Shown piece after piece: positions 4 through 57,170 of a stretch of 64,000 bases of DNA. The translations under genes were made by a program, and so were the position numbers. The stretch is from contig JAWKKG010000002.1 in NCBI GenBank assembly GCA_041393395.1, positions 14,151 to 78,150 on the forward strand, written 5' to 3'. Below the pieces are notes generated by a model. It searched no databases. It saw only the letters and a program-made list of their open reading frames with translations, and was not told the origin of the DNA. Position 1 is the first letter of the stretch. The number at the start of each line of letters is the position of its first letter. This DNA comes from a bacterium. Its GTDB lineage: Bacteria; ARS69.

Positions 4-540
4 GTGGAGGCGCTGACCGGACTCCTGTTCGCGGGGACGGCGATGCTCGTCACGGATCCGCTCGCGCTCGGGTTCGCGCTCGCGTTCGTGGCCGCGATGG
101 TCGTGGTCACGTTCATCGACCTCGACCACATGATCATCCCGGACGTGATCACGTTGCCCGGAACGTTGATCGCGCTCGGCGCGGCGTTCCTCGGCGCCGG
201 CGTGGAGCCGAAGCAGGCGCTGCTCGGCGTGCTCGTGGGCGGCGGCGGTCTGTTCGCCGTGGCGGCGGGCTATCGCGCGGCCACCGGACGCGACGGGCTC
301 GGCGGCGGCGACGTAAAGCTGCTCAGTCTCGTGGGCGCCTTCCTCGGGCCGGTCGGCGCGTTCCTCACGATCATGGTGGGCTCGATCGCGGGGACGCTCT
401 ACGCGAGCGTGTTCCTGCTGCGTCGCGGCGCCGGTCGCACGGCGGAGCTCCCGTTCGGGACGTTCCTGGCCCCCGGTGCCGTTCTCGTCTACTTCTTCGG
501 CGCGCAGATCGTCAGGGCCTATCTCGGCCTCTTCCCGTGA
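4..540 (+). CDS. pilD: Type IV prepilin peptidase (A24 family), C-terminal ~178 aa; 5' end lies outside the window
   Basis: Polytopic membrane protein carrying the characteristic 'FIDLDHMIIPD' aspartyl-peptidase motif. ORF is open to the window edge. Sits directly upstream of the pilS/pilR-like pair and pilMNOPQ. Confidence 0.75.
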   Translation: MEALTGLLFAGTAMLVTDPLALGFALAFVAAMVVVTFIDLDHMIIPDVITLPGTLIALGAAFLGAGVEPKQALLGVLVGGGGLFAVAAGYRAATGRDGLGGGDVKLLSLVGAFLGPVGAFLTIMVGSIAGTLYASVFLLRRGAGRTAELPFGTFLAPGAVLVYFFGAQIVRAYLGLFP

Positions 541-2423
541 TGCGGACCAAGACGCCGATCACCACTCCGGCGCCCGACCTCCGCCGCGCGCACTCGCCGC
601 GGACGGAGCCCGCGCGCCCGGGACCGGGGCCGGCGGATCCGCCGCGATCCGCGTGGCTTCCCGTGTTCGGCGTGGCAGCGCTGTTCGCGCTCGTGCTGCT
701 CTCGCTGCATCTCGCAGTGCGGCTCAAGGAGTCCCTCGGTCACGAGCTGGCCGACCGCCTGCGCGCCGCGTCCGGCCTGTCGGCCGAGGTGGTGGCCGAG
801 GCAGGCTCGCGCCCGGTACGCCCCGGCGACCCCACGACGTTGCAGCGCCTCGAGGAGATCCGCCGCGCCACCGCGGTGACCGACATCGTGCTCTACGACG
901 GCGAAGGCGGCCTCGTGGGCGGAGTCTACGAGGGTGAGCTCAATCCGGCCGTCCCTCCGCGCGTGCGCATCGCGGCCGGCGCCACCGGCGACGCCGCCAT
1001 GCGCGAGCCCGAACGCGACGCCGCGGGCGGCCTGGTCGTGGTGCTCCCGATGGCGTCCGGAGGCTCGATCGGCGCCGTGCTCGTCCGCCTCGACGCGTCG
1101 CGCGATCGCGGCCTCGCGGCGGCGGAGTTCCTGCTGACGCTCGCGAAGATCCTCGGCGGCACCGTGGCCGCCGCCGGCGTGCTCATTCTCCTGCGGTGGT
1201 CCTCGCGCTCGACCGCGGATTCGCGCGGCGCCCCGGCCAGCACCTCCGACGTGGATCTCGTGCTCGGCACCATGAAAGAAGTGATGAGCACGCTCAAGGA
1301 CAGCGAGTCCGAGTACCGCGACCGCATGACGGCCGCCGTGCAGGACGCCGCCTGGATCCGGCGCACGAACGACCTCATCCTCGAGTCGATCGGGAGCGGG
1401 CTCGTGGCGTTCGATCACGACGGCCGCATCACGATGTTCAACCCGGCGGCCGAGGAGATCTTCGCCACGCCGCGCGGCCGCGCGATCGGGCGCGCCGTGG
1501 ACTCGGTGTTCCCGGAGGGCACGCCGATGGCGTCGCTCGCGCGGGATCTGCTGGATCGCGAGCGCGCGCGCCGGCGGGTGGAGCTCTCGATGCCGGGCGG
1601 CGACGGCGAGCCGCGCTGGCTCGGCATCTCGAGCTCCGTCCTGCGCAACGCGCGGGGTCAGGCGGCCGGTGGCCTGCTGCTCGTCGCCGATCTCACGGAA
1701 ACACGCCGCCTGCGCGACGCGGCGGAGCTGAAGGATCGCCTGTCCGCGATCGGGGAGATGTCCGCGGGGATCGCCCACGAGATCAAGAACGCGCTCCACT
1801 CGCTGCTCGGCTACGCGAACTTGCTGCGCGACGACCACGCCGGGAAGGAACCGCCGCTCGCGGTCGCGGGGATCCTCGAGGAGGTCGGTTCGATCGAGGC
1901 GCTCGTGAAGGGCGTCCTCGAGTTCGGCAAGCCGGCGCAGCTCGCGAAGGAAACGGTCGACCTCGCCGTGTTGCTGCGCCAGGTGGCCGAAGCGGTGCGG
2001 GGCCCGGCCGAGGAGGCCGGCGTGTCGGTGGCCCTGGAGATCGACGAGGTCCCCGCGATCACCGCCGACGCCGAGGCATTGCGTCGCGCATTCCTGAACC
2101 TCGCCCTGAACGCCGTGCAGGCGATGGAGGTCGAGGGCGGATCCCTCACGCTCGCCGCACGTTCGGCCGACTCCACGGAGGAAGGCGACGATCTCGGCGG
2201 GAGTGTCCGCGTCTCCGTCCGCGATACGGGCCCCGGGATTCCCGAGGGCGAGCGGCGCAAGGTCTTCACGCCGTTCTGGACGACGAAGCGCGACGGTCAC
2301 GGCCTCGGACTGGCGCTCGTGCACAAGACGGTCACCGATCACGGGGGCCGGATCCAGCTGCACAGCCGCGCGGGGGTCGGCACCGAGTTCGTGGTGACCC
2401 TGCCGGCGGGAGAGCTCGCATGA
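537..2423 (+). CDS. Two-component sensor histidine kinase, PilS/NtrB-like, partner of the downstream sigma-54 regulator. Domains: 2 TM segments flanking a ~150-aa periplasmic domain, PAS, HisKA, HATPase_c
   Basis: H-box 'EMSAGIAHEIKNALHSLLGYANLL'. N/G boxes 'DTGPGIPEGERRKVFTPFWTTK...GLGLALV'. PAS-like segment (NDLILESIGSGLVAFDHDGRITMFNPAAEEIF). Stop overlaps the regulator start (ATGA). Confidence 0.85.
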   Translation: MMRTKTPITTPAPDLRRAHSPRTEPARPGPGPADPPRSAWLPVFGVAALFALVLLSLHLAVRLKESLGHELADRLRAASGLSAEVVAEAGSRPVRPGDPTTLQRLEEIRRATAVTDIVLYDGEGGLVGGVYEGELNPAVPPRVRIAAGATGDAAMREPERDAAGGLVVVLPMASGGSIGAVLVRLDASRDRGLAAAEFLLTLAKILGGTVAAAGVLILLRWSSRSTADSRGAPASTSDVDLVLGTMKEVMSTLKDSESEYRDRMTAAVQDAAWIRRTNDLILESIGSGLVAFDHDGRITMFNPAAEEIFATPRGRAIGRAVDSVFPEGTPMASLARDLLDRERARRRVELSMPGGDGEPRWLGISSSVLRNARGQAAGGLLLVADLTETRRLRDAAELKDRLSAIGEMSAGIAHEIKNALHSLLGYANLLRDDHAGKEPPLAVAGILEEVGSIEALVKGVLEFGKPAQLAKETVDLAVLLRQVAEAVRGPAEEAGVSVALEIDEVPAITADAEALRRAFLNLALNAVQAMEVEGGSLTLAARSADSTEEGDDLGGSVRVSVRDTGPGIPEGERRKVFTPFWTTKRDGHGLGLALVHKTVTDHGGRIQLHSRAGVGTEFVVTLPAGELA

Positions 2424-3820
2424 GCCGCATCGTTCTCGTGGAGGACCGGGCGAGCACCCGGAAGATGGTCGCGGAGACGCTGAAGCGTCGCGGCTTCGAC
2501 GTGGTCTCGGCGGGGACGGTTGCCGCCGGCAAGGACCTCCTGCGCGAGGAGACGCCGGCCGACTTCCTGCTCACGGATCTCCAGCTTCCCGACGGCTCCG
2601 GCCTCGATCTCCTGGACTTCGCGCTCGAGCGCGACGCGTTGCTCCCCGTGATCGTGATGTCCGCGTTCGGGACGATCGAGATCGCGCTGGAGGCGGTCAA
2701 GCGCGGCGCCTACGACTTCGTTCCGAAGCCGTTCGACACGAATCGACTCGTGGAGCTGGTCTCGCTCGCCGTGACGCGACGTTCCCGGGCCGCGGACGCC
2801 TCCGCGGAGTGGAAGATCGACAGCGAGACGGCGAGCGGGATCGTGGGCACGAGCGAGGCGACGGAGGCGGCAGTCCGCAAGGCGCGCCGCGTTGCGCCCT
2901 CGGATGCCACGGTGCTGCTGCTCGGGGAGAGCGGCACGGGCAAGGAGCTGTACGCGCGCGCGATCCACGAGTGGAGCGGGCGCAAGGACGGCTCGCTCGT
3001 GGTGGTGAACTGCGCGGCGATTCCCGGCGAGCTGATGGAGGCGGAGTTCTTCGGCTCGGAGCGGGGTGCCTTCACCGGAGCGGTGGCGCGCAAGCTCGGC
3101 AAGGTCGAAGTCGCCTCCGGCGGCACGCTGTTCCTGGACGAGATCGGGGAACTGCCCTCCGGCCTGCAGGCAAAGCTCCTGCGCGTGCTGCAGGAGCGGA
3201 CGTTCATGCGCGTGGGTGGCACGGAAGAAGTCCGCGCCGACATCCGCGTGATCGCGGCCACGAACCGGGACCTCCGCCGTCAGGTGGAGGAGGGACGCTT
3301 CCGCGACGACCTGTACTACCGGCTCGCGGTGTTCCCCATCCGCATTCCCTCGCTCGGCGAGCGGCGCGAGGACATCCCGCTGCTCGCGCGTCGTTTCGTG
3401 CAGGAGGAGGCGGCGAAACAGGGACGGGCGCTGACCCTGACGGCGGATGCGGAGGCGCGTCTCGGCGAGGCGGCGTGGCCCGGGAACGTGCGCCAGCTCC
3501 GCAACGTCGTGGAGCGCGCCGTGATCCTCGCGGACGCCGACGAGATCGACGCGAGCTGCTTCGACGATCTGGAGCCGGCGGAACCGGCGCCCGCGGGCGT
3601 GGGCGACGAGCCCCGCGCGGCGAAGTCCGGTGAGGACGGCCGAACGCTTCTCGAGATCGGCCGCGACGCGCAGCGACGCGCGGAGTCGCGCGCGATTCTC
3701 GAGGCGCTCGAGGCGACGGGCGGCAATCGCACCGAGGCCGCACGTCGACTCGGCATCTCCTACAAGACGCTGTGGGCGAAGTGCAAGGAGTACGAACTGG
3801 GGGAGGAGGCGAAGGGATGA
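2420..3820 (+). CDS. Sigma-54-dependent Fis-family response regulator (REC, AAA+ sigma-54 activator, HTH); PilR/NtrC-like
   Basis: REC 'IVLVEDRASTRKMVAETLKRRGFDV...FLLTDLQLPDGSGLDLL'. Walker A 'GESGTGKELYARAIH'. Sigma-54 contact motif 'GAFTGA'. C-terminal Fis-type HTH 'GNRTEAARRLGISYKTLW'. The ORF-track entry 1196..3820 is an artefactual upstream extension; the ATG at 2420 overlaps the kinase stop. Confidence 0.9.
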   Translation: MSRIVLVEDRASTRKMVAETLKRRGFDVVSAGTVAAGKDLLREETPADFLLTDLQLPDGSGLDLLDFALERDALLPVIVMSAFGTIEIALEAVKRGAYDFVPKPFDTNRLVELVSLAVTRRSRAADASAEWKIDSETASGIVGTSEATEAAVRKARRVAPSDATVLLLGESGTGKELYARAIHEWSGRKDGSLVVVNCAAIPGELMEAEFFGSERGAFTGAVARKLGKVEVASGGTLFLDEIGELPSGLQAKLLRVLQERTFMRVGGTEEVRADIRVIAATNRDLRRQVEEGRFRDDLYYRLAVFPIRIPSLGERREDIPLLARRFVQEEAAKQGRALTLTADAEARLGEAAWPGNVRQLRNVVERAVILADADEIDASCFDDLEPAEPAPAGVGDEPRAAKSGEDGRTLLEIGRDAQRRAESRAILEALEATGGNRTEAARRLGISYKTLWAKCKEYELGEEAKG

Positions 3821-5322
3821 AGCAACCGAGACTCGACATCATGACGTTCCTGCTCCTCGCGGGAACGTCCGTCGCCGGGGCCCAGGCGATCTCGGACGTG
3901 CCGGTGCCGGTGGCGGCGAAGGCACGGACGGACTGGGTGCTGGACCACCTCGAGGCGCCCGAGGAGATCGCGCTCGGCACGATCGCGGTCAACGTGTGGG
4001 CGCGGATGCTCCCGCGCGGGCTCGCGGCCCCGCTCGTGTCCGCGACGCTCGTGCTCGAGGACGGCGACCCACCGCAACGTATCCCGATGCGACGCGTGGA
4101 GGAGGGTGCCACGCAGTTCGTCGCCACGCTCGACACGTACGCCTGGGTCGAGGACGCGGCGCACTCGTTCTCGGTGGTCGTGACGGCGGAGGACGGTGAG
4201 GCCAAGGTGGGCCGCGGGACGATCCGCGCGAAGCCGCGCATCGACGCCCGGGACCTGCTCGTGCTCGACGCGAACGGGTTCGCGCACACGTGGATCGGGA
4301 GCGGCGCCGGCGGCTTCACCCCCTCGGGCGAGGTCGACGCCGGCCTCGCGAGCGCGTGCCCGTGGATCGGCGACGTCGATGGGGATGGCCGCCCCGACGC
4401 GCTCGTCCCCACCCGGACCGGTGTCCTGCAAGTCCTGCACAACCGGGGCAACGGAACGCTGAATCTGTCCGCGTCGCACCGGTTCGGCCGCGCGGTGGAG
4501 GCCGCGATCGGTGACGTGGACGGCGACGGCAAGCCCGATCTCGTGACGGTCTCCGCGGATCGCTCGCTCGAGATCCGCGCGCCGTTCGACGCGGAACCGA
4601 TCTTCCAGTCGCTGACGCTCGCGCCGGAACGCCTCGCGCTCGTGGATCTCGACGGCGACGGCGCGGACGAGATCGCGATCGGCTTGCTGGGTTTTGCGGA
4701 TTCCGACGTGGAGATCTGGAGCCGCGAAGACGGTGCGGAACGTCGCTTCGGGGCACGAAAGCGCCTGCCTCCGCCCGGAAACGCGCGCGGAAGGCTGGTC
4801 GCGCTTCGCGGGATCCCGGGCGAGAACGGGGCTCCGGGCCGTCTCGTGGTGGCCGCCGAGCTCGACGGGGAAGGAACGCTTGAGTCCTGGGGAGGCGCTG
4901 CCGATACGGAATCCGGAATGTCCTTCCGGGCGGTCCGGCTGCCCGGGGAGCCGATCGGGGTTCTCCCTGGTCGATTCTCGTCGGCGAAAGATGGGCTCGC
5001 GTCGCTCGTGCTCGTCGCCGATGGGAGAAGGGTGGCGTTGATCGAGGTCCGCGAAACCGGGGAAGTGCTCCGGCGCGGAACTCTCGAGAAAGCGCCGGAA
5101 GTTCTCGGAGCGATCGATCTCGATGGCGACGGGGACGACGACCTGGTGACGGGTGGGGAGGACCTGAGGCTCTGGATCAACGTCCGGGGCGATCAGTTCC
5201 GGGAGGCAGGGGAATCGCCCTACCTCACGGACGCGCCGATCGTGGCGATCGCTTCCGGGAGTCTCGACGAACGGCAACAGCCCGAGCCGGCTCGGAATCG
5301 GCCGCGAGCGACGAAGGAGTAG
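3817..5322 (+). CDS. Secreted FG-GAP / calcium-binding beta-propeller repeat protein (501 aa), embedded in the pilus locus
   Basis: Signal peptide 'MKQPRLDIMTFLLLAGTSVAGAQA'. Four or more Ca-binding-like loops: 'DVDGDGRPDALV', 'GDVDGDGKPDLVTV', 'DLDGDGADEIAIG', 'IDLDGDGDDDLVTGG'. ATG overlaps the regulator stop (ATGA). Ends 6 nt before pilM. Confidence 0.6.
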   Translation: MKQPRLDIMTFLLLAGTSVAGAQAISDVPVPVAAKARTDWVLDHLEAPEEIALGTIAVNVWARMLPRGLAAPLVSATLVLEDGDPPQRIPMRRVEEGATQFVATLDTYAWVEDAAHSFSVVVTAEDGEAKVGRGTIRAKPRIDARDLLVLDANGFAHTWIGSGAGGFTPSGEVDAGLASACPWIGDVDGDGRPDALVPTRTGVLQVLHNRGNGTLNLSASHRFGRAVEAAIGDVDGDGKPDLVTVSADRSLEIRAPFDAEPIFQSLTLAPERLALVDLDGDGADEIAIGLLGFADSDVEIWSREDGAERRFGARKRLPPPGNARGRLVALRGIPGENGAPGRLVVAAELDGEGTLESWGGAADTESGMSFRAVRLPGEPIGVLPGRFSSAKDGLASLVLVADGRRVALIEVRETGEVLRRGTLEKAPEVLGAIDLDGDGDDDLVTGGEDLRLWINVRGDQFREAGESPYLTDAPIVAIASGSLDERQQPEPARNRPRATKE

Positions 5323-5328
5323 GACAGC

Positions 5329-6381
5329 ATGTTCAAATTCGGTCGGGGATCGAAAAGAGTGGTCGGCCTCGACATCGGGTCGAGCTCGGTCAAGGTCGTC
5401 GAGTTCGATCACTCGGGGGAACGGCCCGTCCTGGTCAAGTTCGGTCGCTGCGGTCTGCTTCCGGAAGCCATCGTGGACGGCGAGATCATGGACCGCGACG
5501 TGGTGGTGGATACCATCGCGGAGCTCATGGAAGTGAATGGCATCGCTTCCAAGGAAGTGGTGACCGCGGTCAGCGGTCGCGCCGTCATCGTGAAGAAGAT
5601 CCAGATGACCTCGATGACGGACGAGGAGGCGCGCGAGGCGATCCGCTGGGAAGCCGAGCAGCACATCCCGTTCGACATCGACGACGTGTCGCTGGACTTC
5701 CAGATCCTGAACCGCGACGCGGACCCGGAGAAGATGGACGTGCTCCTGGTCGCCGCGAAGAAGGAGATGCTGGAGGCCCGGGCGGACCTGATTCGCGCGG
5801 CCGGCCTCACCCCGGCCATCATCGACATCGACTCGTTCGCGGTCCAGAACGCGTTCGAGCACAACTACGAGATGCCCGAGGGCGCCGTGACGCTGCTGCT
5901 GAACGTGGGCTGCTTCGTCACGAACGTGAACATCGTGAAGGACGGCGTGCCGTACTTCACCCGCGACCTCTCGTTCGCGGGCAACGCGATCCTCGAGGCG
6001 GTGCAGAAGGACCTCGGCGTGGACTACGACGAGGCCAACGAGATTCTCGAATCGCCGGACGACGATCGCCGCGACGACCTGACCTCCATCGTGGGGCTGG
6101 TCGGCGAGGAGCTCGCGGTCGGCATCGAGAAGTCCCTGTCGTACCTGCGGGCGGCGGGCGAGGCGGACCGGATCGATCGGATCGTCCTCTCCGGCGGCAG
6201 CTCGTACGCGCCGGGACTACGCGAGTCGATCGAGAAGCGGCAGGGGTCGCCGGTCGAGATCGCGAATCCGTTCAAGAACGTGAGCTACGACGACGCGGCC
6301 TTCGGCGACAGCGATCCGGAGAATCTCGGACCGCAGTACATGGTGGCGGCGGGTCTGGCTCTGCGCGCGGGAGGTCAGTGA
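5329..6381 (+). CDS. pilM: Type IV pilus assembly ATPase-like (actin-fold) protein PilM
   Basis: 'VGLDIGSSSVKVVEF...' N-terminus and full-length similarity to PilM, followed by pilNOPQ. Confidence 0.9.
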   Translation: MFKFGRGSKRVVGLDIGSSSVKVVEFDHSGERPVLVKFGRCGLLPEAIVDGEIMDRDVVVDTIAELMEVNGIASKEVVTAVSGRAVIVKKIQMTSMTDEEAREAIRWEAEQHIPFDIDDVSLDFQILNRDADPEKMDVLLVAAKKEMLEARADLIRAAGLTPAIIDIDSFAVQNAFEHNYEMPEGAVTLLLNVGCFVTNVNIVKDGVPYFTRDLSFAGNAILEAVQKDLGVDYDEANEILESPDDDRRDDLTSIVGLVGEELAVGIEKSLSYLRAAGEADRIDRIVLSGGSSYAPGLRESIEKRQGSPVEIANPFKNVSYDDAAFGDSDPENLGPQYMVAAGLALRAGGQ

Positions 6382-6382
6382 C

Positions 6383-6970
6383 ATGATTCGCATCAACCTT
6401 CTGCCGCAGGACGCGCGGAAGTCCCGCCGCGGAGGCGGCGGAGGCTTCACGCTCGACAAGACCAAGGTCGTACCGCTCGTGGTGCTCGCCCTGGTCCTGA
6501 CGGCCTGCACGTCGACCCTGATGATCCAGGGTGCCCGCGTCTCCTCGGCGGAGCGTGAGGTGGCGGCGGCGCGGGCGGAGACCGAGCAGTACAAGAAGAC
6601 CATCGCCCTGATCGACGACATGGTCCGCAAGGAGCAGGAGCTGAACCGTCGGCTCGCGCTCGTGGACACGCTCGACAAGGACCGTTTCAAGACGGTCCGG
6701 GTGATGGACGAAGTGGCGCGGCGGGTGCCGCGGTACATGTGGCTGACCTCGCTCAAGAACGTCACGCCGGATCGGGTCGCGATCGACGGCTACGCGTTCT
6801 CGAACCTGGTCGTCTCCGATCTGATGTCGAGTCTGGAGAAGTCGGAGATGTTCCGGGAAGTCGAATTGAGCGGGGTGAGGCGGAAGGTCGTCGACGGCCA
6901 GAACGCGGTGAATTTCACCGTGACCTCGGGCGTCGATGTCGCCCGCCTCGAACGTGAGAGCGAGTCCTAG
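6383..6970 (+). CDS. pilN: Type IV pilus inner-membrane protein PilN
   Basis: Canonical 'MIRINLLPQ' N-terminus, single TM helix, coiled-coil periplasmic region. Starts 2 nt after the pilM stop. Confidence 0.85.
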   Translation: MIRINLLPQDARKSRRGGGGGFTLDKTKVVPLVVLALVLTACTSTLMIQGARVSSAEREVAAARAETEQYKKTIALIDDMVRKEQELNRRLALVDTLDKDRFKTVRVMDEVARRVPRYMWLTSLKNVTPDRVAIDGYAFSNLVVSDLMSSLEKSEMFREVELSGVRRKVVDGQNAVNFTVTSGVDVARLERESES

Positions 6971-6980
6971 GGAGGCCGGC

Positions 6981-7652
6981 ATGGGCAACATCGATTTCAA
7001 GGATCAGAACGTCCAGATCGCCGGTCTCGTGATCTTCGTGTCCCTGGTGATCGTGTACGTCTTCTTCTTCAGCGCCATGCTCCCGTTCGGGTTCAAGGCG
7101 CGCGGGGAGGAGATCGCGAGGCTGGAGACCGAGTACGAGAAGCTCTCGGCGGATCTCATGAAGGCGAAGCAGACGGCGAGCCGTCTGCCGCAGGTCAAGG
7201 CCGAGTACGAGGCCCTGGCCACGAAGTGGGAAGAGGCGAAGACGCTCCTCCCGACCGAGAAGGAGATGGCGGAACTGCTGTCCCAGGTCACGGTCGCGGG
7301 TCAGCGCTCGGGAGTCGACTTCCTGAACTTCGAGCCGAAGGCCCCGGTCGCGCGGGAGATCTATCTCGAGAACCCGATCGACGTGAAGGTGCAGGGTGGT
7401 TACCACGAGATCGGCCTGTTCCTGGGCCGCATGTCGAACCTCCCGCGCATCGTGAACGTCAAGTCGATCGATCTCAAGAACGTCACGAATCCCGACGACC
7501 CGGAGGCCCCGGATCTCGTGGAGGCGAGCATGAGCCTCGCCGCGTACGTGCTGTCCGACGCCGCTTCGCAGGCGCAGGGTGCCCCGGCCACTCCGGCCGG
7601 CAAGATTCCCCCCGCGCCCGCTCAGCCGAAGGGAGGTCGCGGTGGTCACTAA
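6981..7652 (+). CDS. pilO: Type IV pilus inner-membrane protein PilO
   Basis: Internal ATG of ORF 6936..7652. N-terminal TM (IAGLVIFVSLVIVYVFFF), coiled coil, periplasmic domain. Position between pilN and pilP. Confidence 0.7.
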   Translation: MGNIDFKDQNVQIAGLVIFVSLVIVYVFFFSAMLPFGFKARGEEIARLETEYEKLSADLMKAKQTASRLPQVKAEYEALATKWEEAKTLLPTEKEMAELLSQVTVAGQRSGVDFLNFEPKAPVAREIYLENPIDVKVQGGYHEIGLFLGRMSNLPRIVNVKSIDLKNVTNPDDPEAPDLVEASMSLAAYVLSDAASQAQGAPATPAGKIPPAPAQPKGGRGGH

Positions 7653-8250
7653 GGTGCGAGTTGTCGTCGCCCTGTCGGGCCTCGTGATGATCCTGGCCGG
7701 TTGTGGCGACGGCGGGGTCACCGGGTTCACCGGCGGTACGAGCTCCAAGGATAAGCAGCCGATCCCGCCCGCGGTCAACGCGGCGGCGGGAGTCGGGGTG
7801 GCGCACGCGGCGACGCCGGACGCCAGCCCGTCGATGGAAGGTCCGGCCGCCACGTCGAAGGCGCCCGAGACGATGGACGTGGACGACGTGGACTCGGAGT
7901 CCCCGATCCGTTCCCAGTCCATGCAGTACCGGGCCGACCGGATGCGGGATCCCTTCCTGTCGCTGATCGGCGACTCCGAGGGCTTCGGCGAACTGGTCGA
8001 TCTCTCGGTCGTGACCCTCGTGGGTGTGGTGCTGGGGGAGAAGCCGTTCGCGGTCGTCGAGAACGCCGAGGGCATCAGCTACGTTCTGCACGAGGGGGAT
8101 CGCGTGAAGAACGGGCGGGTGGTCGAGATCCGCGAAGAGGGGATCAAGTGCTCGCAAACGGTGCTGGGCTACACGACGACGGTCCAACTCAAGCTCGAGG
8201 AGCAGAAGAAGGTCGGGACGACCGGAAAGGGCGGAAAGAATGTCGGTTGA
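7642..8250 (+). CDS. pilP: Type IV pilus lipoprotein PilP
   Basis: GTG start gives a lipoprotein signal 'VVTKVRVVVALSGLVMILAGC' (lipobox LAGC). C-terminal PilP-like beta domain. Overlaps the pilO end by 11 nt and the pilQ start by 11 nt. Start codon choice is uncertain. Confidence 0.6.
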   Translation: MVTKVRVVVALSGLVMILAGCGDGGVTGFTGGTSSKDKQPIPPAVNAAAGVGVAHAATPDASPSMEGPAATSKAPETMDVDDVDSESPIRSQSMQYRADRMRDPFLSLIGDSEGFGELVDLSVVTLVGVVLGEKPFAVVENAEGISYVLHEGDRVKNGRVVEIREEGIKCSQTVLGYTTTVQLKLEEQKKVGTTGKGGKNVG

Positions 8251-9520
8251 TCTGATTCCCCGGAAGGGGCTGGCGCTTGGGCTGGCGATGTTCGCGCTCA
8301 CGGCGCTCGCCGGGTCGGCGCAGGCCGCCCGGCCGGAAATCGATACGGCCGGCATGGCCGCCATCGACATCGACGTGCAGGGCGCGACGGTGTCCTCGGT
8401 CCTCCGGATGTTCTCGGAGTTCTCGGGGCGCAACATCATCGCGGGGCCGGAAGTCAGCGGCAAGATCACGGCGAAGCTGGACGGCGTGCCGTGGCTCGTG
8501 GCGCTCGACAACGTGCTCCGCGCGCACGGTTTCGCGTGGGAAGAGACGGCGGACGGCGACATCATCCGCGTGACGACGTCCGAGAAGCTCTCGAACGAGC
8601 GTCTGAACGAGGAAGTCGTCGAGCGACGTCGTGAGGAGTTCCTCCCGCTCGAGACCGAGATCATCAAGGTCTCCTACGCCTCGGCGGAGGAGATGCAGGA
8701 ACCGCTCGAGATCCTGCTGTCCACGCGTGGCAAGATCGAGACCGACGAGCGCACGAACGCGCTCATCGTCACGGACATCGGCACTCGTCTCGGCCGCGTG
8801 CGCGAGATGGCGAAGATCCTCGACTTCAAGACGGCTCAGGTCGAGATCAACGCCGAGCTCGTGGACGTCGACACCCGCGCGATCCGGGACCTCGGCATCT
8901 CGTGGGACGTCACCGGCCTGAACCAGGGCGACGCCAGCGGCAGCGGCAGCGTGGACGCTACCGTGCCGGGAGTCGGCGTGGTGAACTTCAACCTCACCGG
9001 CACCGACGCGGACTTCACGTCGCAGCTCCAGGCGCTGGCCCGGGACGACAAGGCGAAGATCATCTCGAACCCGCGGATCACGACGGCCGACAACAAGGAA
9101 GCGAAGATCATCGTCGGCAAGAAGATCCCGCTGGTGGTCTCGGACGAGTCCGGCAACGCGGTGACCGAGCTCACGACCGTGGGCATCAAGCTCACCGTGG
9201 TGCCGCACATCAACCAGGACGACCGGATCACGCTCGACATGCACCCCGAGGTCTCCGACCTCTCGGCGCAGGCGACGGTCCAGGGCGGCATCATCATCGT
9301 GACGTCGGAAGCGCAGACGCGCGTGATCGTCGAGAACGGCCAGACGGCGGTGATCGGCGGTCTGATCCGCACGAACGAGTCGTCCGTGGATCAGGGCGTT
9401 CCGTACCTGAAGGACATCCCGCTGCTGGGCTACCTCTTCAAGAGCAACAACAAGGTCAAGGAAGAGCGTGAGCTGATGATCTTCGTGACGCCGAAGATCA
9501 TCCGGCCCGAGGACGTCTAG
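8240..9520 (+). CDS. pilQ: Type IV pilus secretin PilQ (short form, 426 aa)
   Basis: Signal peptide, N0/secretin domains, conserved C-terminal secretin motif 'VPYLKDIPLLGYLFKSNNKVKEERELMIFVTPKII'. No N-terminal AMIN repeats are visible. Confidence 0.9.
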   Translation: MSVDLIPRKGLALGLAMFALTALAGSAQAARPEIDTAGMAAIDIDVQGATVSSVLRMFSEFSGRNIIAGPEVSGKITAKLDGVPWLVALDNVLRAHGFAWEETADGDIIRVTTSEKLSNERLNEEVVERRREEFLPLETEIIKVSYASAEEMQEPLEILLSTRGKIETDERTNALIVTDIGTRLGRVREMAKILDFKTAQVEINAELVDVDTRAIRDLGISWDVTGLNQGDASGSGSVDATVPGVGVVNFNLTGTDADFTSQLQALARDDKAKIISNPRITTADNKEAKIIVGKKIPLVVSDESGNAVTELTTVGIKLTVVPHINQDDRITLDMHPEVSDLSAQATVQGGIIIVTSEAQTRVIVENGQTAVIGGLIRTNESSVDQGVPYLKDIPLLGYLFKSNNKVKEERELMIFVTPKIIRPEDV

Positions 9521-12563: not shown

Positions 12564-14299
<1,736 letters not shown>

Positions 14300-14303
<4 letters not shown>

Positions 14304-15262
14304 CGCGCGATCGACTCGTTCGCCTCGGAATCTCCGTCTCGCGTCTCGCGCCCGTCACCGCCCGGAAGATCCGCGAGCACTACGGCGGATGGGTGGCGGC
14401 GGTCGAGGCGGCGGACCGGGATCGGGACTTCCCCGAATCCTGGCGAGAGACGTTCCGCGGGGCCGAACGCGCGGGACACGTCGCCATCGAGCGGGCCCGG
14501 GCGGCCCACGCGACCGTGTTGTGGCGAGGAGATGCGGAGTGGCCGGACGGTCTCGCCGGTCTCTCGGATCCCCCGGAGGTCCTGTTCGTGCGGGGCGATC
14601 CGCGTTTGCTGCGGGAACCGTCCGTCGCGATCGTGGGAACGCGCGAGTGCACGCCGGAAGGCGCGGACCTCGCCCGTCGACTCGGGGCGCGACTCGCCGA
14701 GGCGGGCCGCTGCGTCGTGTCGGGTCTCGCGCGAGGCATCGACACGGCCGCGCACGTCGGCGCGCTCGAAGGGGAAGGCGACACGATCGCGGTGCTCGGG
14801 GCCGGAGTCGACGTGCCCACGCCGCCCCGCAACGCCGCGCTCCACGAGGAGATCGCGAATCGCGGAGCGCTCGTCTCGGAGTTCGCCCCGGGGACCGAGC
14901 CGCGTCCCCGCCACTTTCCTCGCCGCAACCGGATCCTCGCCGCCCTCGCGCAGGCGATCGTCGTGATCGAGGCGAGGCTCCGTTCCGGCGCGCTCGTCAC
15001 GGCCCGCCACGGACTGGACCAGGGCAAGGAGATCTTCGTCGTGCCGGGATGGCCGGGATCCCCGCTCGCGGCCGGTCCTTTGGCACTGCTCCGGGACGGA
15101 GCCCGCCCGATCCGCGGGGCGGACGATCTGCTCGAGGACCTGTGCGGGCTCGGTGCCTCGCCCCCGTTCGCGATCGTCGCGGAGGGGGAGGACCGCCCCG
15201 TCGACTCTGCCGAGCAGCGAGCCCTGCGTGAGCTGCTCGGACCGGGTGTCCGCCTTGAGTAG
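14300..15262 (+). CDS. dprA: DNA-processing protein DprA (Smf)
   Basis: 'VAIVGTRECTPEGADLARRLGARLAEAGRCVVSGLARGIDTAAHVGALEGEGDTIAVLGAGVD' Rossmann-like DprA core. ATGA overlap with the upstream gene. Confidence 0.85.
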
Positions 15263-16208
15263 TGCGGGCAAGCGCGCGAAGCACGCACTCGAGACCGTGG
15301 GATTCCGTCTCCTCGTGGGGGCGGTCCGTCGCACGCCGAGGGCCTTCGCACTGTCGCTGGGCTCGGCGCTCGGGCGCTTCGCGTTCGAGATCGGGATCCG
15401 CCGTCGGGTGGCGGTGGACAACGTCCTCGCGCGGCTCGCGCCGGCGGGCGGACGTCGCGCGGCCGTCCGCGTCGCGCGTGAGAGCTACTCGGTGATCGCG
15501 CGCACGTTCGTGGATCTGCTCCGGACCGATGTCGAGCCGGACGCCGTGGTCGGTGCGCTCGTGCCGCGCGAGGATCTGGAGCCGATCCTCGCGGTGTGGC
15601 GGCAAGGGAAGGGCGCGATGTTCGTCTCCGGGCACTTCGGCAACTGGGAACTGCTGTTGAATTCGATTCGACGCCTCGGCGTTCCGGTCGGCGCGATGGC
15701 GAAGGACCAGTCGAACGCGGCCGTGAACGAGATGGTGAAGAGCATCCGCGCGCGCGGCGGGATCACCCCGCTCTCGTCGCGTCGCGATCTGCGGGAAGCG
15801 GTTCGCCTGCTGCGCAGCGGCGGGTACGTCGCCACGCTGATGGACCAGGACGCCGGGCGACGCGGCGAGTTCGTGCCGTTCCTGGGAACCCTGGCGTCCA
15901 CGCCGAGCGGCGCGGTGACGATGGCGGTACGGACGGGCGCCCCGCTCGTGCCCGGCGTGCTCGTGGATCTCGGCGGCTCGTATCGCGCCGCGATCGGCGA
16001 ACCGTGGTGGCCCCCCGCCGCCGGGGAGATGGCGGAAGAGGAAGCGGTGCGGGCCGGCGTGGTGCACTACACGCGCTTCCTGGAGGAGCACGTGCGCGCG
16101 CACCCGGAGAACTACTTCTGGGCGCACCGGCGCTGGAAGACGCGACCGATGGATGCGGGCCCGGACGGACGGGCGGGCCGGCCGTCCGGCGCGAAGGCGG
16201 GCTCGTGA
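15246..16208 (+). CDS. Lipid A biosynthesis (Kdo2-lipid IVA) acyltransferase, LpxL/HtrB family
   Basis: 'FVSGHFGNWELL' HX4D-type acyltransferase motif. Family-wide similarity. GTG/TTG start is uncertain. Confidence 0.75.
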   Translation: MSALSSAGKRAKHALETVGFRLLVGAVRRTPRAFALSLGSALGRFAFEIGIRRRVAVDNVLARLAPAGGRRAAVRVARESYSVIARTFVDLLRTDVEPDAVVGALVPREDLEPILAVWRQGKGAMFVSGHFGNWELLLNSIRRLGVPVGAMAKDQSNAAVNEMVKSIRARGGITPLSSRRDLREAVRLLRSGGYVATLMDQDAGRRGEFVPFLGTLASTPSGAVTMAVRTGAPLVPGVLVDLGGSYRAAIGEPWWPPAAGEMAEEEAVRAGVVHYTRFLEEHVRAHPENYFWAHRRWKTRPMDAGPDGRAGRPSGAKAGS

Positions 16209-17429: not shown

Positions 17430-18236
17430 TCAGTGAGAGAGGAGCTTCCGGGGGGGAGCCGCTGGCGATCGATCCGAGCTTCGTTCAGGTTCGGGCATCC
17501 GTCCTTCGGGGCGGATGCCCTTTTTCTTGGTGGCCGCTGCCGGAGCGACGTCCTCGGGCGGCTCGGACGGGCCGGCCAGTTCCGTGAGTCGCGCGAGCAC
17601 CGGGCGGGCGGTCGCGTGGTGCCCGGCCCGCCAGGCGGCGCCCGCGGGGCCGGCGAGGGCGGTCTCCGCGAGGGAGGCCTCGAGCATCCGGGATCCGGCC
17701 AGGAACAGGAAGCCGGCACCCCAGACCCGGGGAAGGTCCTCGAGGAGGAGCGGGGCGTGGGCGGCGTCGGCCAGGAAGGTCACGAGAAAGCCGCCGCCGG
17801 CGGCAAGCCAGATCGGCCCCGGAACGTCGCGCCCGCGCGGCGAGCGCGCGAGGGTCCAGAGCGCCGGCCCGGCCACCGCGACGAACACGAGCCACGCGAG
17901 GCGTTCGGCGGCGGGAGAGTGACCGGACAGTGCGGGAAGCACCCGGAAGCGCTCCTCGAACGCCACGAGGGCGAGGATCCACGCGAGTCGTGTTCGCGCG
18001 CCGTGCTCGGCGGGATTCGAGCGTCCGGCAAGACGCTCGGAGCGCGTCACCACCGTCAGCAGCAGCGCGCTCGCGAGCAAGAGACCCGCCGAGACGGTCG
18101 CGTGCGCGTGACCGAACGCCGGACTGCCGGAATCGAGGATCACGTCGCGAACCACGGACTCGCGGCCGACCCACTGCAGGTATCCGAGCACGCCGGAGTA
18201 GACGGCGAGCAGGATCAGAACGGCCTGGCGGATCAA
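17430..18236 (-). CDS. Hypothetical polytopic membrane protein
   Basis: Several predicted hydrophobic helices (e.g. AVLILLAVYSGVLGYL, GLLLASALLLTVV, LAWLVFVAVAGPALW). No family recognised. Only plausible coding frame in an otherwise empty ~1.2-kb interval. Confidence 0.35.
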   Translation of the reverse strand: MIRQAVLILLAVYSGVLGYLQWVGRESVVRDVILDSGSPAFGHAHATVSAGLLLASALLLTVVTRSERLAGRSNPAEHGARTRLAWILALVAFEERFRVLPALSGHSPAAERLAWLVFVAVAGPALWTLARSPRGRDVPGPIWLAAGGGFLVTFLADAAHAPLLLEDLPRVWGAGFLFLAGSRMLEASLAETALAGPAGAAWRAGHHATARPVLARLTELAGPSEPPEDVAPAAATKKKGIRPEGRMPEPERSSDRSPAAPPRKLLSH

Positions 18237-21754: not shown

Positions 21755-23500
21755 TCATCGCAGGAGCAACACCTTGCCGGTGCCGTGGATCCCGTTGCGG
21801 ACGCGAAAGAAGTACATCCCGGCCGGAACCGGCGCTCCCGCGTCGTTCGTTCCGTCCCAGCGCGCCGCGCGACCCGCGTCGACCAGCGACGACGCGTCCA
21901 GCGTGCGCACCCGGCGACCCGTCGCGTCGTGCACGGTGATGATCACGTCGTCGGGCGCGGAACCCTCGAACGTGAGCTGCAGCGACACGCCCGACAGTCG
22001 AGCGGGCAGCCACGGGTTCGGCGTGGCGTACGGGAGCGCGACCTCGATCTCCGTGTTCGTCACCGTGAAAGTCGCCGATGCCGAAGTCGCCCCCGACGAG
22101 TGCACCACGACCTCCACTCCGCTCTCCGATTCATCGAAGAGATGCGAGTTCGGCACGCTCGACTCGTCGAACACGCTCTGCGCGCCCGGCCACGGATCCG
22201 TGATCCCCGTGGTCAGTGCGAGGTCCGCGTCCTGGGGCTCCAGCGTGAGCAGGCCACCGCCGTCGGCGTAGGCGGACGCGCGATTCGTCACGCGGCCCTC
22301 GTCCACGTGGTACAGAAGCACCCCGCTCCCGGGAAGTCCCGCGTCCCACCCGGTGGGGGTGCGCATCTCGGCGAGGAAGAACTCGCCCGATCCGGGATCC
22401 CCGCTCCGCCAGTCCACGTCGCCGGGATTGGAGCGGAGCTGCACCGCGCTGCCGCCGGTCGCGATCGGTGTCAACGTTCGCGACGCGGTGATCGTCCGGC
22501 CGGGATCGGCCGCCAGCACTTCCGGCAGGTTCCAGTCCAGGTAAGCCCGGGACCACGCGGAGAACGAGCCCGGCAGCGCGCCCGGGGCCGCCGTCTCCGC
22601 GACGCCGCGCACTCGATTCCAGGTGCCGTAGTCCATGAGGTCCCATTGGCCCACGCGGTCCTCGAAGGTCTCCGTGTCGTAGAAATCCGGCAGCCCGAGG
22701 ACGTGACCGAACTCGTGGCAGTAGACGCCGATCGTGGCGATCGAGTCCGCCCACAGGGGCGCCACGGTCGGGCGCACGAGCTGGAGCTCGGGGCAGGTGA
22801 AGTAGTCGGCGACGCGAGGCTGACCGGAGCCGAAGTTCCCGTCGACCACGGACCACTTGTGGGAGTTGATCGCGAAGAGATCGGTCTCCGGCGTCAGCGC
22901 GGACGAGACGGCCCACTCGTAGCCCTGACCCGAGTGGATCACGAGAAGCGCGTCCACCACGCCGTCTCCGTTCGCGTCGTAGTCGGAGAGGTCGAGGCCT
23001 CCGGTCACGGCCGCCTGCACCGCATCTTCCGTCATGCGCTGGCCGTTGTTCGGATACGGGCCGACGCCCGCGCCGTTCGTGCCGCCGGAATAGAAGGACT
23101 GGGTCTCGGGCAGCGTGACCCAGCCCCAGACGTCGCCGGTGACGGACAGCGCTCCGTCCGACAGGTCCTCGTAGAAGCGGCGGAACGTGAAGCCCGTGGT
23201 TCCGAACAGGTGGCTCTCGAAGCGCGCGGGCGCGATGCGGGCGGGGCGGTCCGGATACTGGGCGAGGATCACGAGCAGGTGGACGCTGCCGGTCGGGTCG
23301 ACGGTCGCCCGGCTGGTGCCGCGTGCAATGACGGGCGGGACGGAACGCTCGGCCGGGAGGGCCGCGAGCTCGCGAAAAGGAGCCGCCACGCAATCCGGGA
23401 CCCCATCTCCGGGATCCGCGATCGCTCCACGCGCCGAGCCGGGCCCGAGCCCGAGCCCCAAGAGCATCACGACGAGAGTCCTCGTGTGGCGTGCCGTCAT
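21755..23500 (-). CDS. Secreted M6-family (immune inhibitor A-like) zinc metalloprotease with T9SS-type/FlgD-Ig-like C-terminal sorting domain
   Basis: Signal peptide. Zincin 'HEFGHVLGLPDFYD'. C-terminal ~80 aa 'DVIITVHDATGRRVRTL...WDGTNDAGAPVPAGMYFFRVRNG...KVLLLR'. Confidence 0.8.
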   Translation of the reverse strand: MTARHTRTLVVMLLGLGLGPGSARGAIADPGDGVPDCVAAPFRELAALPAERSVPPVIARGTSRATVDPTGSVHLLVILAQYPDRPARIAPARFESHLFGTTGFTFRRFYEDLSDGALSVTGDVWGWVTLPETQSFYSGGTNGAGVGPYPNNGQRMTEDAVQAAVTGGLDLSDYDANGDGVVDALLVIHSGQGYEWAVSSALTPETDLFAINSHKWSVVDGNFGSGQPRVADYFTCPELQLVRPTVAPLWADSIATIGVYCHEFGHVLGLPDFYDTETFEDRVGQWDLMDYGTWNRVRGVAETAAPGALPGSFSAWSRAYLDWNLPEVLAADPGRTITASRTLTPIATGGSAVQLRSNPGDVDWRSGDPGSGEFFLAEMRTPTGWDAGLPGSGVLLYHVDEGRVTNRASAYADGGGLLTLEPQDADLALTTGITDPWPGAQSVFDESSVPNSHLFDESESGVEVVVHSSGATSASATFTVTNTEIEVALPYATPNPWLPARLSGVSLQLTFEGSAPDDVIITVHDATGRRVRTLDASSLVDAGRAARWDGTNDAGAPVPAGMYFFRVRNGIHGTGKVLLLR

Positions 23501-39721: not shown

Positions 39722-39901
39722 ACGCGGGCCTCCGGTCGATCGCCGCGGCGAGGGTATCATGCGATCCGGGTGCGGTCACCCGAGGAGCCGCCGCGGCGAT
39801 CCTCCCGCTTGCCCATCAAGTCGATGCCGGGAAACGTCGATCCTTTGTCAGGATTGGGCGGCTTTGCCGGGAGCCCGGGGCAGGCGAGGAGTGGGGGCGT
39901 G

Positions 39902-43780: not shown

Positions 43781-43789
43781 GGGCCTCGC

Positions 43790-57076: not shown

Positions 57077-57170
57077 CGTGGTATAGTAGCGGCCCGTACC
57101 ACGCACCGGCTTCCCCAAAGTGAACCGGCCTCCGTCCGGGGCCGTACCCAACCCGATTCGAGGTCCACCG

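What the first reader, a model, noticed from the sequence alone, without database searches (positions are those of the whole stretch)
3817..5322. Secreted Ca-binding FG-GAP beta-propeller protein inserted between pilR-like regulator and pilM, translationally coupled to the regulator
The ATG overlaps the sigma-54 regulator stop and the gene ends 6 nt before pilM. It therefore sits inside the pilus operon: pilD - kinase - regulator - X - pilMNOPQ. The repeated 'D-x-D-G-D-G-x-x-D' loops are typical integrin-like Ca-binding FG-GAP blades.
Established knowledge: the T4P tip adhesin PilY1 uses a C-terminal Ca-binding beta-propeller.
Inference: this protein may be a PilY1-like functional analogue (adhesin or Ca-dependent retraction regulator), or a periplasmic accessory of the PilMNOPQ complex.
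Basis: partly seen in the sequence, partly recalled or inferred. Interest (0 to 1): 0.5.

Follow-up and report, generated by a model that had tools for sequence, protein, structure and literature searches.

The report
Calcium-loop propeller gene in pilus operon
A secreted protein built from an Ig-like domain and a seven-bladed, calcium-loop beta-propeller is always encoded between a sensor-kinase/regulator pair and the pilM-Q pilus machine genes in one uncultured bacterial lineage. It is not a PilY1 relative, and it is most likely an extracytoplasmic accessory of that regulatory pair or of the pilus machine.

Summary
Window 3817-5322 (+) encodes a 501-aa protein. Its ATG overlaps the stop of a sigma-54 response regulator (ATGA), and its stop lies 6 nt before pilM. 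The operon reads pilD - PAS kinase - regulator - X - pilMNOPQ.

X has a Sec-type signal peptide, an Ig-like beta-sandwich (aa 40-139) and a seven-bladed FG-GAP propeller (aa 146-481) with four DxDxDG loops. The AlphaFold2 model has pLDDT 86.

X belongs to a closed family of about 40 protein clusters from one uncultured lineage, labelled Ca. Eiseniibacteriota, Gemmatimonadota or just "bacterium". In all 13 independent loci, wherever the neighbours are on the contig, the regulator is upstream and pilM is downstream. Generic FG-GAP relatives in other phyla are not pilus-linked.

X is not a PilY1 family member. It has no PilY1 domain, no vWA domain and no adjacent minor pilins. The nearest outgroup lacks the kinase, the regulator and X together. 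Two further outgroups carry four minor pilins in the same slot.

My best reading (about 0.4) is a periplasmic Ca-dependent binding protein that works with the PilS2R2-like two-component system. The rivals are a structural accessory of the machine and a pilus-associated adhesin. It is a lineage-specific variant of a known system, of moderate interest.

The parts
3817..5322 (+). Gene X: 501-aa secreted Ig-like + FG-GAP propeller protein (stop TAG at 5320-5322)
   Evidence: ORF and junctions. Pfam FG-GAP_3 and FG-GAP. Family of about 40 clusters. AF2 model with pLDDT 86 and pTM 0.81.
3817..3888 (+). Sec-type signal peptide, aa 1-24 (MKQPRLDIMTFLLLAGTSVAGAQA | ISDV); no lipobox
   Evidence: Read from the sequence. 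The same basic n-region, hydrophobic core and AxA/AQ site recur across the family alignment. Residues 1-28 are disordered in the model. No predictor was run.
3934..4233 (+). N-terminal Ig-like beta-sandwich, aa 40-139 (eight strands)
   Evidence: Model secondary structure. No Pfam hit and no PDB sequence hit. A full HMMER scan gives weak matches to tandem Big_13 / Y_Y_Y-type Ig repeats in large surface proteins.
4252..5259 (+). Seven-bladed FG-GAP beta-propeller, aa 146-481. It has 28 strands. Blade 7 is closed by the C-terminal strand 475-481 together with the N-terminal strands 146-174.
4372..4398 (+). Ca-type loop 1, aa 186-194 (DVDGDGRPD), in the strand 1-2 hairpin of blade 1
   Evidence: Moderately conserved (0.59). 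D186 and D194 are invariant.
4513..4539 (+). Ca-type loop 2, aa 233-241 (DVDGDGKPD), blade 2
   Evidence: Conservation 0.74. D241 is invariant; D233 and D235 are nearly invariant.
4645..4671 (+). Ca-type loop 3, aa 277-285 (DLDGDGADE), blade 3
   Evidence: Conservation 0.69. E285 is invariant.
5116..5142 (+). Ca-type loop 4, aa 434-442 (DLDGDGDDD), blade 6. This is the most conserved element of the family.
   Evidence: Conservation 0.96. D436, D438, D440, D441 and D442 are invariant.
5197..5238 (+). Conserved FREAGESPY...P loop, aa 461-474, on the top face between blades 6 and 7. Together with GSGAGGF (aa 161-167, nt 4297-4317) and loop 4 it forms a conservation hot spot around blades 6-7.
   Evidence: Conservation 0.82 and 0.97. 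E463, A464, G465, S467, P468 and Y469 are invariant.
5275..5319 (+). Window-specific 15-aa C-terminal extension (aa 487-501). It reads through what is intergenic sequence in other loci and contains the pilM ribosome-binding site.
   Evidence: Alignment. Junction comparison. Disordered in the model.
537..2423 (+). Sensor histidine kinase (PilS2-like position): TM1 at about aa 36-64, periplasmic domain at about aa 65-197 (nt 729-1127), TM2 at aa 198-220, then PAS-HisKA-HATPase
   Evidence: Pfam. Hydropathy. The sensor domain is conserved within the clade but is not recognisable in sister-lineage kinases.
2420..3820 (+). NtrC-type sigma-54 response regulator (PilR2-like position). Its stop overlaps the start of X.
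   Evidence: Pfam and NCBIfam. ATGA overlap.
4..540 (+). 3' part of prepilin peptidase pilD (cut by the window edge). Its end overlaps the kinase start by 4 nt.
   Evidence: Peptidase_A24. Full-length homologues in L001, L002 and L004.
5329..9520 (+). pilM (5329-6381), pilN (6383-6970), pilO (about 6981-7652), pilP-like lipoprotein (7579-8250; the true start is probably later) and a short AMIN-less pilQ (8240-9520)
   Evidence: Pfam. Lipobox. Synteny.

Best explanation
X is a lineage-specific, Sec-exported and most likely periplasmic protein made of an Ig-like domain and a seven-bladed FG-GAP propeller with four integrin-type Ca loops. It is the third gene of a kinase-regulator-X module that sits between pilD and pilMNOPQ in a Myxococcus-type type IVa pilus supercluster. 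This is the position of PilS2R2 in M. xanthus.

The mechanism I think most likely is as follows. X is an extracytoplasmic binding partner, or co-sensor, of the kinase's roughly 135-aa periplasmic domain. It binds Ca2+, and possibly a Ca-dependent ligand such as a glycan. It thereby modulates phosphorylation of the sigma-54 activator and hence pilus gene expression.

Shown:
- the gene, its junctions and operon continuity
- the fold and the motifs
- a closed family with invariant gene position
- absence of the whole three-gene block from the nearest outgroup

Inferred:
- periplasmic location
- Ca binding
- interaction with the kinase
- the regulatory output
For: Position is invariant in 13 of 13 independent loci, down to 39% identity. 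One of these loci was sampled through PilM rather than through X.

X is joined more tightly to the regulator than to pilM. There is a 4-nt ATGA overlap in 4 of 7 loci with gene calls. The gap to pilM is always positive, 6-56 nt.

The nearest outgroup is L025 (PilM 61%, PilQ 65%, PilD 65% identical). It has pilC-pilS-pilR-pilA-pilA-ABC-ABC2-TPR-pilD followed directly by pilM. It lacks the kinase, the regulator and X together.

The kinase has two transmembrane segments flanking a periplasmic domain. That domain, like X, is specific to the clade. X and the sensor domain are the two fastest-evolving parts of the cluster: mean p-distances are 0.53 and 0.59, against 0.19-0.41 for the machine proteins.

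X has a signal peptide but no lipobox, no prepilin leader and no C-terminal FlgD_ig domain. Two other secreted proteins in this window do carry that domain.

Precedents from my own knowledge: sigma-54-type two-component systems with an operon-encoded periplasmic accessory, namely QseE-QseG-QseF and ZraP-ZraSR. The kinase and regulator here score against the AtoS/ZraS and AtoC/ZraR models.

Ca2+ is known to control type IV pilus genes in A. baumannii through an unidentified sensor (bioRxiv 10.64898/2026.02.23.707608).
Against: There is no direct evidence of an interaction between X and the kinase. The mirror-tree analysis did not separate the kinase (partial r 0.58-0.62) from PilQ (0.59) or PilP (0.48).

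The block-wise absence rests on a single outgroup contig. PilS2R2 in M. xanthus works without such a protein: the published cluster order has pilR2 directly before pilM (PMC6060248, and my own recollection of the gene order).

No internal promoter or terminator separates X from pilMNOPQ. Operon structure therefore does not assign X to the regulators rather than to the machine.

In integrins the Ca loops of FG-GAP propellers are mainly structural, so their presence does not imply Ca sensing.
Confidence: 0.4

Rival explanations
1. X is a structural periplasmic accessory of the PilMNOPQ machine. For example, it could be a peripheral ring or anchor that binds peptidoglycan or another glycan and stabilises the short, AMIN-less secretin. 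It would play a role like TsaP, FimV or the AMIN domains through a lectin-like propeller.
Against: AMIN-less PilQ also occurs in L026 and L029, which lack X, so loss of AMIN does not track X. The nearest outgroup runs pilMNOPQ without X. X evolves far faster than the machine's periplasmic parts. X is translationally coupled to a low-abundance regulator rather than to pilM.
Confidence: 0.25
2. X is a functional analogue of PilY1, or a pilus-dependent exported protein of the TcpF/CofJ kind. It would be a non-pilin Ca-binding propeller that associates with the pilus tip or priming complex and acts as an adhesin or as a Ca-dependent extension/retraction switch.
For: In two sister lineages (L026 and L029; PilM 57% and 55% identical) the slot between the most similar kinase-regulator pair and pilM holds four minor pilins, one of about 950 aa. 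The regulators of those pairs are 48-51% identical to the clade's regulator, against 40-44% to the PilR of L025. X is therefore positionally equivalent to a tip or priming cassette. This resembles fimS-algR next to fimU-pilVWXY1E in P. aeruginosa (own knowledge). PilY1 uses a Ca site in its C-terminal propeller, which contacts PilX (own knowledge of Orans et al. 2010). X evolves fast, as exposed proteins do.
Confidence: 0.2
3. X is a hitch-hiker: a secreted FG-GAP protein with a function unrelated to pili, such as a lectin or matrix protein. It would merely be fixed in this operon in one lineage.
For: FG-GAP/VCBS proteins are very common and functionally diverse. The next-best relatives (27-38% identical over part of the sequence) sit in unrelated contexts. 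X has no detectable counterpart in any characterised pilus system.
Against: Position is strictly retained over divergence down to 39% identity, in a compact and overlapping operon, in 13 of 13 loci. The family is never seen elsewhere among 5.8 billion clustered proteins.
Confidence: 0.1

Closest known systems
FG-GAP / VCBS integrin-alpha-type beta-propellers (Pfam PF01839, PF13517; e.g. ITFG2, integrin alpha, the Psathyrella lectin PVL)
   Different: X is a compact 336-aa propeller preceded by a family-specific Ig-like domain. It has no I-domain, no thigh or calf domains and no enzyme domain. It is a closed, clade-restricted family with its own invariant motifs (GSGAGGF, LESW..ADT, FREAGESPY, GSLDER) and is fixed in a pilus operon.
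PilY1 / PilC (type IVa pilus tip protein)
   Same: A Sec-exported non-pilin protein encoded in a pilus gene cluster, with a beta-propeller carrying DxDxDG-like Ca loops. In sister lineages the equivalent slot holds minor pilins.
   Different: X has no PF05567 domain and no N-terminal vWA or mechanosensing domain. It is half the size or less. It is not encoded with minor pilins. It is no closer in structure to PilY1 than to any generic seven-bladed propeller.
Myxococcus xanthus pil supercluster with PilS2-PilR2 between pilD and pilM
   Same: The gene order is the same: pilin, ABC transporter genes (pilGHI-like), pilD, kinase, sigma-54 regulator, pilMNOPQ (PMC6060248). In M. xanthus PilR2 is required for pilus-dependent motility (PMC6211767).
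   Different: The published Myxococcus cluster has no gene between pilR2 and pilM. I could not test orthology of this kinase and regulator with PilS2 and PilR2, because no Myxococcus sequence was available in the tools.
Sigma-54 two-component systems with an operon-encoded periplasmic accessory (QseE-QseG-QseF; ZraP-ZraS-ZraR)
   Same: A kinase with a periplasmic domain, an NtrC-type regulator and a third exported protein in one operon. The kinase and regulator here score against the AtoS/ZraS and AtoC/ZraR models.
   Different: QseG is a small lipoprotein and ZraP is a small helical metal-binding protein. Neither is a propeller and neither is pilus-linked. The comparison rests on my own knowledge. 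No interaction was tested here.
TcpF (V. cholerae) and CofJ (ETEC): proteins secreted through type IVb pili and encoded in the pilus operon
   Same: A Sec signal peptide, a gene inside the pilus operon, and a flexible N-terminal segment after the signal-peptide cleavage site.
   Different: Those are type IVb systems. Their secretion signal binds a minor-pilin trimer. The N-terminal segment of X is poorly conserved, and no such minor pilin is nearby.

Membership tests
FG-GAP / VCBS beta-propeller superfamily | FG-GAP repeat matches above the curated thresholds | tested here: met
   PF13517 scores 70.5 bits (cut-off 26.9). PF01839 scores 48.1 bits (cut-off 22.1).
FG-GAP / VCBS beta-propeller superfamily | Seven-bladed propeller fold | tested here: met
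FG-GAP / VCBS beta-propeller superfamily | DxDxDGxxD Ca-binding hairpins | tested here: met
   There are four loops, in blades 1, 2, 3 and 6. Loop 4 is invariant across the family. Actual Ca2+ binding cannot be tested with these tools.
PilY1 / PilC | C-terminal PilY1-type propeller domain (PF05567) | tested here: not met
PilY1 / PilC | Large N-terminal (vWA-like) domain; total length of about 1000 aa or more | tested here: not met
   X is 501 aa. Its N-terminal domain is a 100-aa Ig-like sandwich.
PilY1 / PilC | Encoded with the minor pilins (fimU-pilVWX type) | tested here: not met
   No prepilin leader motif occurs in the 64-kb window. The neighbours of X are a regulator and pilM in all loci. 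The rest of these genomes could not be searched.
Core type IVa pilus machine proteins (PilMNOPQ, TsaP, pilotin) | Homology to a known component, and presence wherever the machine is present | tested here: not met
   X has no pilus-family Pfam or NCBIfam hit. It is absent from outgroup pilMNOPQ loci L025, L026, L027 and L029. It has no lipobox, so it is not a pilotin.
Three-component signalling module (kinase + regulator + exported accessory) | Same operon; co-inheritance with the kinase and regulator | tested here: met
   Overlapping genes. The order kinase-regulator-X is kept in all loci. All three genes are absent from L025, which is only one outgroup.
Three-component signalling module (kinase + regulator + exported accessory) | The kinase has an extracytoplasmic domain and the accessory is in the same compartment | tested here: inconclusive
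   Two transmembrane segments flank aa 65-197 of the kinase. The periplasmic location of X is inferred from its signal peptide and from the lack of any anchor or sorting domain.
Three-component signalling module (kinase + regulator + exported accessory) | Physical and functional interaction with the kinase | not testable with these tools
   The mirror-tree analysis was not discriminating. No multimer prediction was available.

The most novel reading that the evidence does not exclude
In this lineage X has taken over the genomic slot, and perhaps the job, of the minor-pilin/PilY1 priming and tip complex that related lineages encode between the same kinase-regulator pair and pilM. It would be a non-pilin, integrin-like Ca-binding propeller that primes, caps or gives adhesiveness to a type IVa pilus. 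A milder novel reading, with probability about 0.35, is a dedicated periplasmic Ca2+ co-sensor that feeds a pilus-cluster two-component system.
Probability: 0.1. Interest if true: 0.75.

Novelty: new variant of a known kind. Interest (0 to 1): 0.4.

Why it matters
Type IV pilus clusters are among the best-charted bacterial machines, and accessory parts specific to a lineage are where new biology tends to appear. Examples are PilY1, TsaP, and PilW of Thermus.

Here a closed protein family is welded to a pilus-cluster two-component system across a whole uncultured lineage. It gives a concrete candidate for how an extracytoplasmic cue, plausibly Ca2+ or a glycan, reaches pilus regulation. That sensor is explicitly unknown in at least one model organism.

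The practical impact is limited. The hosts are uncultured, the fold is common, and no mechanism could be demonstrated in silico.

Tried and rejected
- Promoters and terminators. I looked for a sigma-54 or sigma-70 promoter, or a terminator, that would separate X from pilM. None was found in the window. No conserved -24/-12 element was found upstream of pilM in 10 loci; only a ribosome-binding site is conserved.
- Mirror-tree and rate correlation between X and the kinase sensor, PilQ, PilP, PilN and PilO over 9 loci. All partial correlations were similar (0.4-0.6), so the test did not discriminate.
- N-terminal domain. It has no Pfam hit even at E = 10 and no PDB sequence hit. A full HMMER scan found only weak similarity to generic Big_13 / Y_Y_Y Ig repeats.
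- The next-best relative, a 740-aa Myxococcales FG-GAP protein, is not pilus-linked. Neither are FG-GAP hits in Planctomycetota, Verrucomicrobiota, Polyangia, Zixibacteria and Gemmatimonadales.
- Homology between X and the sister-lineage minor-pilin cassette or the invasin-like proteins: none.
- 'X replaces the missing AMIN domains of PilQ' is rejected as a specific correlation, because AMIN-less PilQ also occurs without X.
- The RGD at aa 457-459 is not conserved in the family, so I treat it as chance.
- Kinase-first sampling of metagenomes with the sensor domain. The first alignment was too variable, and the second scan found no confirmed relative. The X-profile scan added one more syntenic locus, L030.
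- The afdb50 fold library was unavailable.
Full report
OBSERVATION

The ORF is real and the coordinates are exact. The ATG at 3817 overlaps the TGA (3818-3820) of the upstream gene. The stop TAG is at 5320-5322 and pilM starts at 5329.

Pfam assigns the neighbours as follows:
- a prepilin-peptidase fragment, 4-540
- a PAS-HisKA-HATPase kinase, 537-2423
- a Response_reg/Sigma54_activat/HTH_8 regulator, 2420-3820
- PilM, PilN and PilO
- a short secretin, 8240-9520 (N0, N1 and secretin domains; no AMIN)

The unassigned ORF in the PilP position (7579-8250) has a lipobox, LAGC, and its homologue in L001 has a faint PilP hit.

The junctions pilD/kinase, kinase/regulator and regulator/X all overlap by 4 nt. 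I found no sigma-70 or sigma-54 promoter consensus and no plus-strand terminator between positions 1 and 11000. The block therefore looks like one operon, followed by aroK and housekeeping genes.

WHAT THE PROTEIN IS

X (501 aa) matches FG-GAP_3 (E 1.8e-19) and FG-GAP (E 9.7e-13). It carries four DxDxDG loops. Its N-terminus reads as a Sec signal peptide (MKQPRLD / IMTFLLLAGTSVAG / AQA) without a lipobox cysteine or a prepilin motif.

An AlphaFold2 model built on a 28-sequence family alignment is confident: pLDDT 86 and pTM 0.81. Its parts are:
- aa 1-28: disordered
- aa 40-139: an eight-stranded beta-sandwich
- aa 146-481: 28 strands, i.e. seven four-stranded blades, with the C-terminal strand closing blade 7

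The Ca-type loops sit in the strand 1-2 hairpins of blades 1, 2, 3 and 6, which is the integrin arrangement.

Structure and sequence comparisons agree on the fold:
- Foldseek against the PDB puts ITFG2, an FG-GAP propeller, first (E 8.5e-10).
- A family profile against PDB sequences finds only an FG-GAP-containing esterase, ITFG2 and the lectin PVL.
- PilY1 appears in none of these lists.

The N-terminal domain has no Pfam or PDB sequence match. An exhaustive HMMER scan of 1.84 billion representatives links it only weakly to tandem Big_13 / Y_Y_Y-type Ig repeats of large surface proteins.

Conservation peaks around blades 6-7:
- loop 434-442: 0.96
- GSGAGGF: 0.97
- FREAGESPY: 0.82

FAMILY AND CONTEXT

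Searches of 5.8 billion clustered proteins, with the single sequence and with the family profile, define a closed family. It has 40 full-length clusters and 4 fragments scoring 600-699 bits. Scores then fall to 253 bits or less for generic 700-880-aa FG-GAP proteins.

All members come from metagenomes. Named records say Ca. Eiseniibacteriota, Gemmatimonadota or simply 'bacterium'.

I examined 13 independent loci, the window included. They span X identities of 39-58%. One was reached through PilM rather than through X. Wherever the flank is on the contig, the regulator is immediately upstream and pilM immediately downstream.

Further upstream lie a pilin, two ABC-transporter genes, a 354-aa protein and pilD. 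This is the gene order of the Myxococcus pil supercluster, where PilS2-PilR2 sit between pilD and pilM (PMC6060248; PMC6211767).

The start of X overlaps the regulator stop in 4 of 7 loci with gene calls. The gap to pilM is 25-56 nt except in this window, where a 15-aa C-terminal extension shortens it to 6 nt.

OUTGROUPS

PilM homologues fall into the X-clade (76% identity or more, 37 clusters) and then a gap down to 61%.

- L025 is the nearest outgroup (PilM 61%, PilQ 65%, PilD 65%). It has pilC-pilS-pilR-pilA-pilA-ABC-ABC2-TPR-pilD, then 198 nt, then pilMNOPQ. The kinase, the regulator and X are all missing.
- L026 and L029 are the next two outgroups (PilM 57% and 55%). They have a kinase-regulator pair that is the closest relative of the clade's pair: the regulators are 48-51% identical, against 40-44% to the PilR of L025. 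That pair is followed by four canonical minor pilins, one of about 950 aa, and then pilMNOPQ.
- L027, a Ca. Eisenbacteria contig (PilM 52%), has pilMNOPQ alone. Its PilQ contains an AMIN domain, and the downstream housekeeping genes are the same as in the window.

The kinase has a periplasmic domain of about 135 aa between two transmembrane segments. That domain is conserved inside the clade. It cannot be recognised in the kinases of L026 and L029.

INTERPRETATION

The association with the pilus cluster is strong. X is positionally invariant across deep divergence, sits in a compact operon and is never seen elsewhere. The fold prediction is also strong.

Membership in PilY1 fails on every testable defining feature. 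X should be described as an FG-GAP propeller, not as a PilY1 homologue.

For mechanism, three facts favour the two-component system as the partner. First, the three-gene block is present or absent as a unit. Second, X is coupled more tightly to the regulator than to pilM. Third, X arose alongside a clade-specific periplasmic sensor domain. I give this co-sensor or accessory model about 0.4. It has precedents in QseEGF and ZraPSR (own knowledge).

The positional equivalence with a minor-pilin cassette keeps a tip-associated, PilY1-like role alive at about 0.2. Adjacency to pilM, the short AMIN-less secretin and the lectin-like structural neighbours keep a machine-accessory role at about 0.25. 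A hitch-hiker role is unlikely, at about 0.1.

Rate-correlation analysis could not separate these models. No multimer modelling or whole-genome census was possible with the tools.

NOVELTY AND SCORE

Literature searches found no paper that links FG-GAP or VCBS proteins to pilM or pilMNOPQ clusters. NCBI labels the protein only as 'VCBS repeat-containing protein'.

This is a new lineage-specific variant of a known system: a type IVa pilus supercluster with a second two-component system. It is built from a common fold. A pilus specialist would find it mildly surprising. It offers a testable candidate for extracytoplasmic, possibly Ca2+, input into pilus regulation. However, the hosts are uncultured and the function is unproven. 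Interest: 0.4.

Noticed in passing
window 8240-9520 (+): PilQ is unusually short (426 aa: N0, N1 and secretin domains; no AMIN). A Ca. Eisenbacteria outgroup PilQ (L027, 553 aa) has an AMIN domain. The PilQ of L026 and L029 (about 440 aa) does not.
   Followed up: partly
window 21758-23500 (-) and 57120-59597 (+): Two secreted proteins end in a FlgD_ig domain: an M6 peptidase and an 825-aa LVIVD/CarboxypepD_reg protein. This is probably the lineage's C-terminal surface-sorting tag. X lacks it.
   Followed up: partly
window 4090-4110 (X aa 92-98): The window protein and its closest relative P0002 lack the DGAFDS motif that is otherwise conserved in the Ig-like domain. They have a 4-residue deletion there.
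   Followed up: no
window 5275-5322: X has a 15-aa C-terminal extension that reads through sequence which is intergenic in all other loci. The pilM ribosome-binding site (GAAGGAG) therefore lies inside the coding end of X.
   Followed up: yes
L026 3400-8852 and 13812-16796; L029 3378-8855 and 13807-16827: Sister lineages carry kinase, regulator, four minor pilins (one of about 950 aa with faint fn3 hits) and pilMNOPQ, followed by a Big_1/invasin-like lipoprotein of about 1000 aa. This is a different accessory set in the same cluster.
   Followed up: partly
window 729-1127 (kinase aa 65-197): The kinase periplasmic sensor domain is conserved within the clade (motifs YD..G.L.GG and PERDAAGGLTLVVPL). 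It shows no detectable similarity to the sensor region of the closest kinases in L026 and L029.
   Followed up: partly
window 39632-44668 (+): A 1382-aa PAS/GAF multidomain protein is followed directly by an HDOD-domain protein. No output domain was found by Pfam.
   Followed up: no
window 34178-35923 (+): The RNase III ORF is 581 aa, but the RNase III and dsRBD domains cover only aa 48-257. The C-terminal 320 aa or so are unassigned. They may be a real extension or a high-GC ORF artefact.
   Followed up: no
window 14135-15421 (-), 17430-18236 (-), 36276-37721 (-), 63024-63989 (-): These ORFs have high GC3 and no Pfam match.
   Followed up: no
window 3204-5180 (-) and 3760-5862 (-): Antisense ORFs of 658 and 700 aa run across X and pilM. 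They are artefacts of about 70% GC content. The plus-strand genes have conserved families and confident folds.
   Followed up: yes
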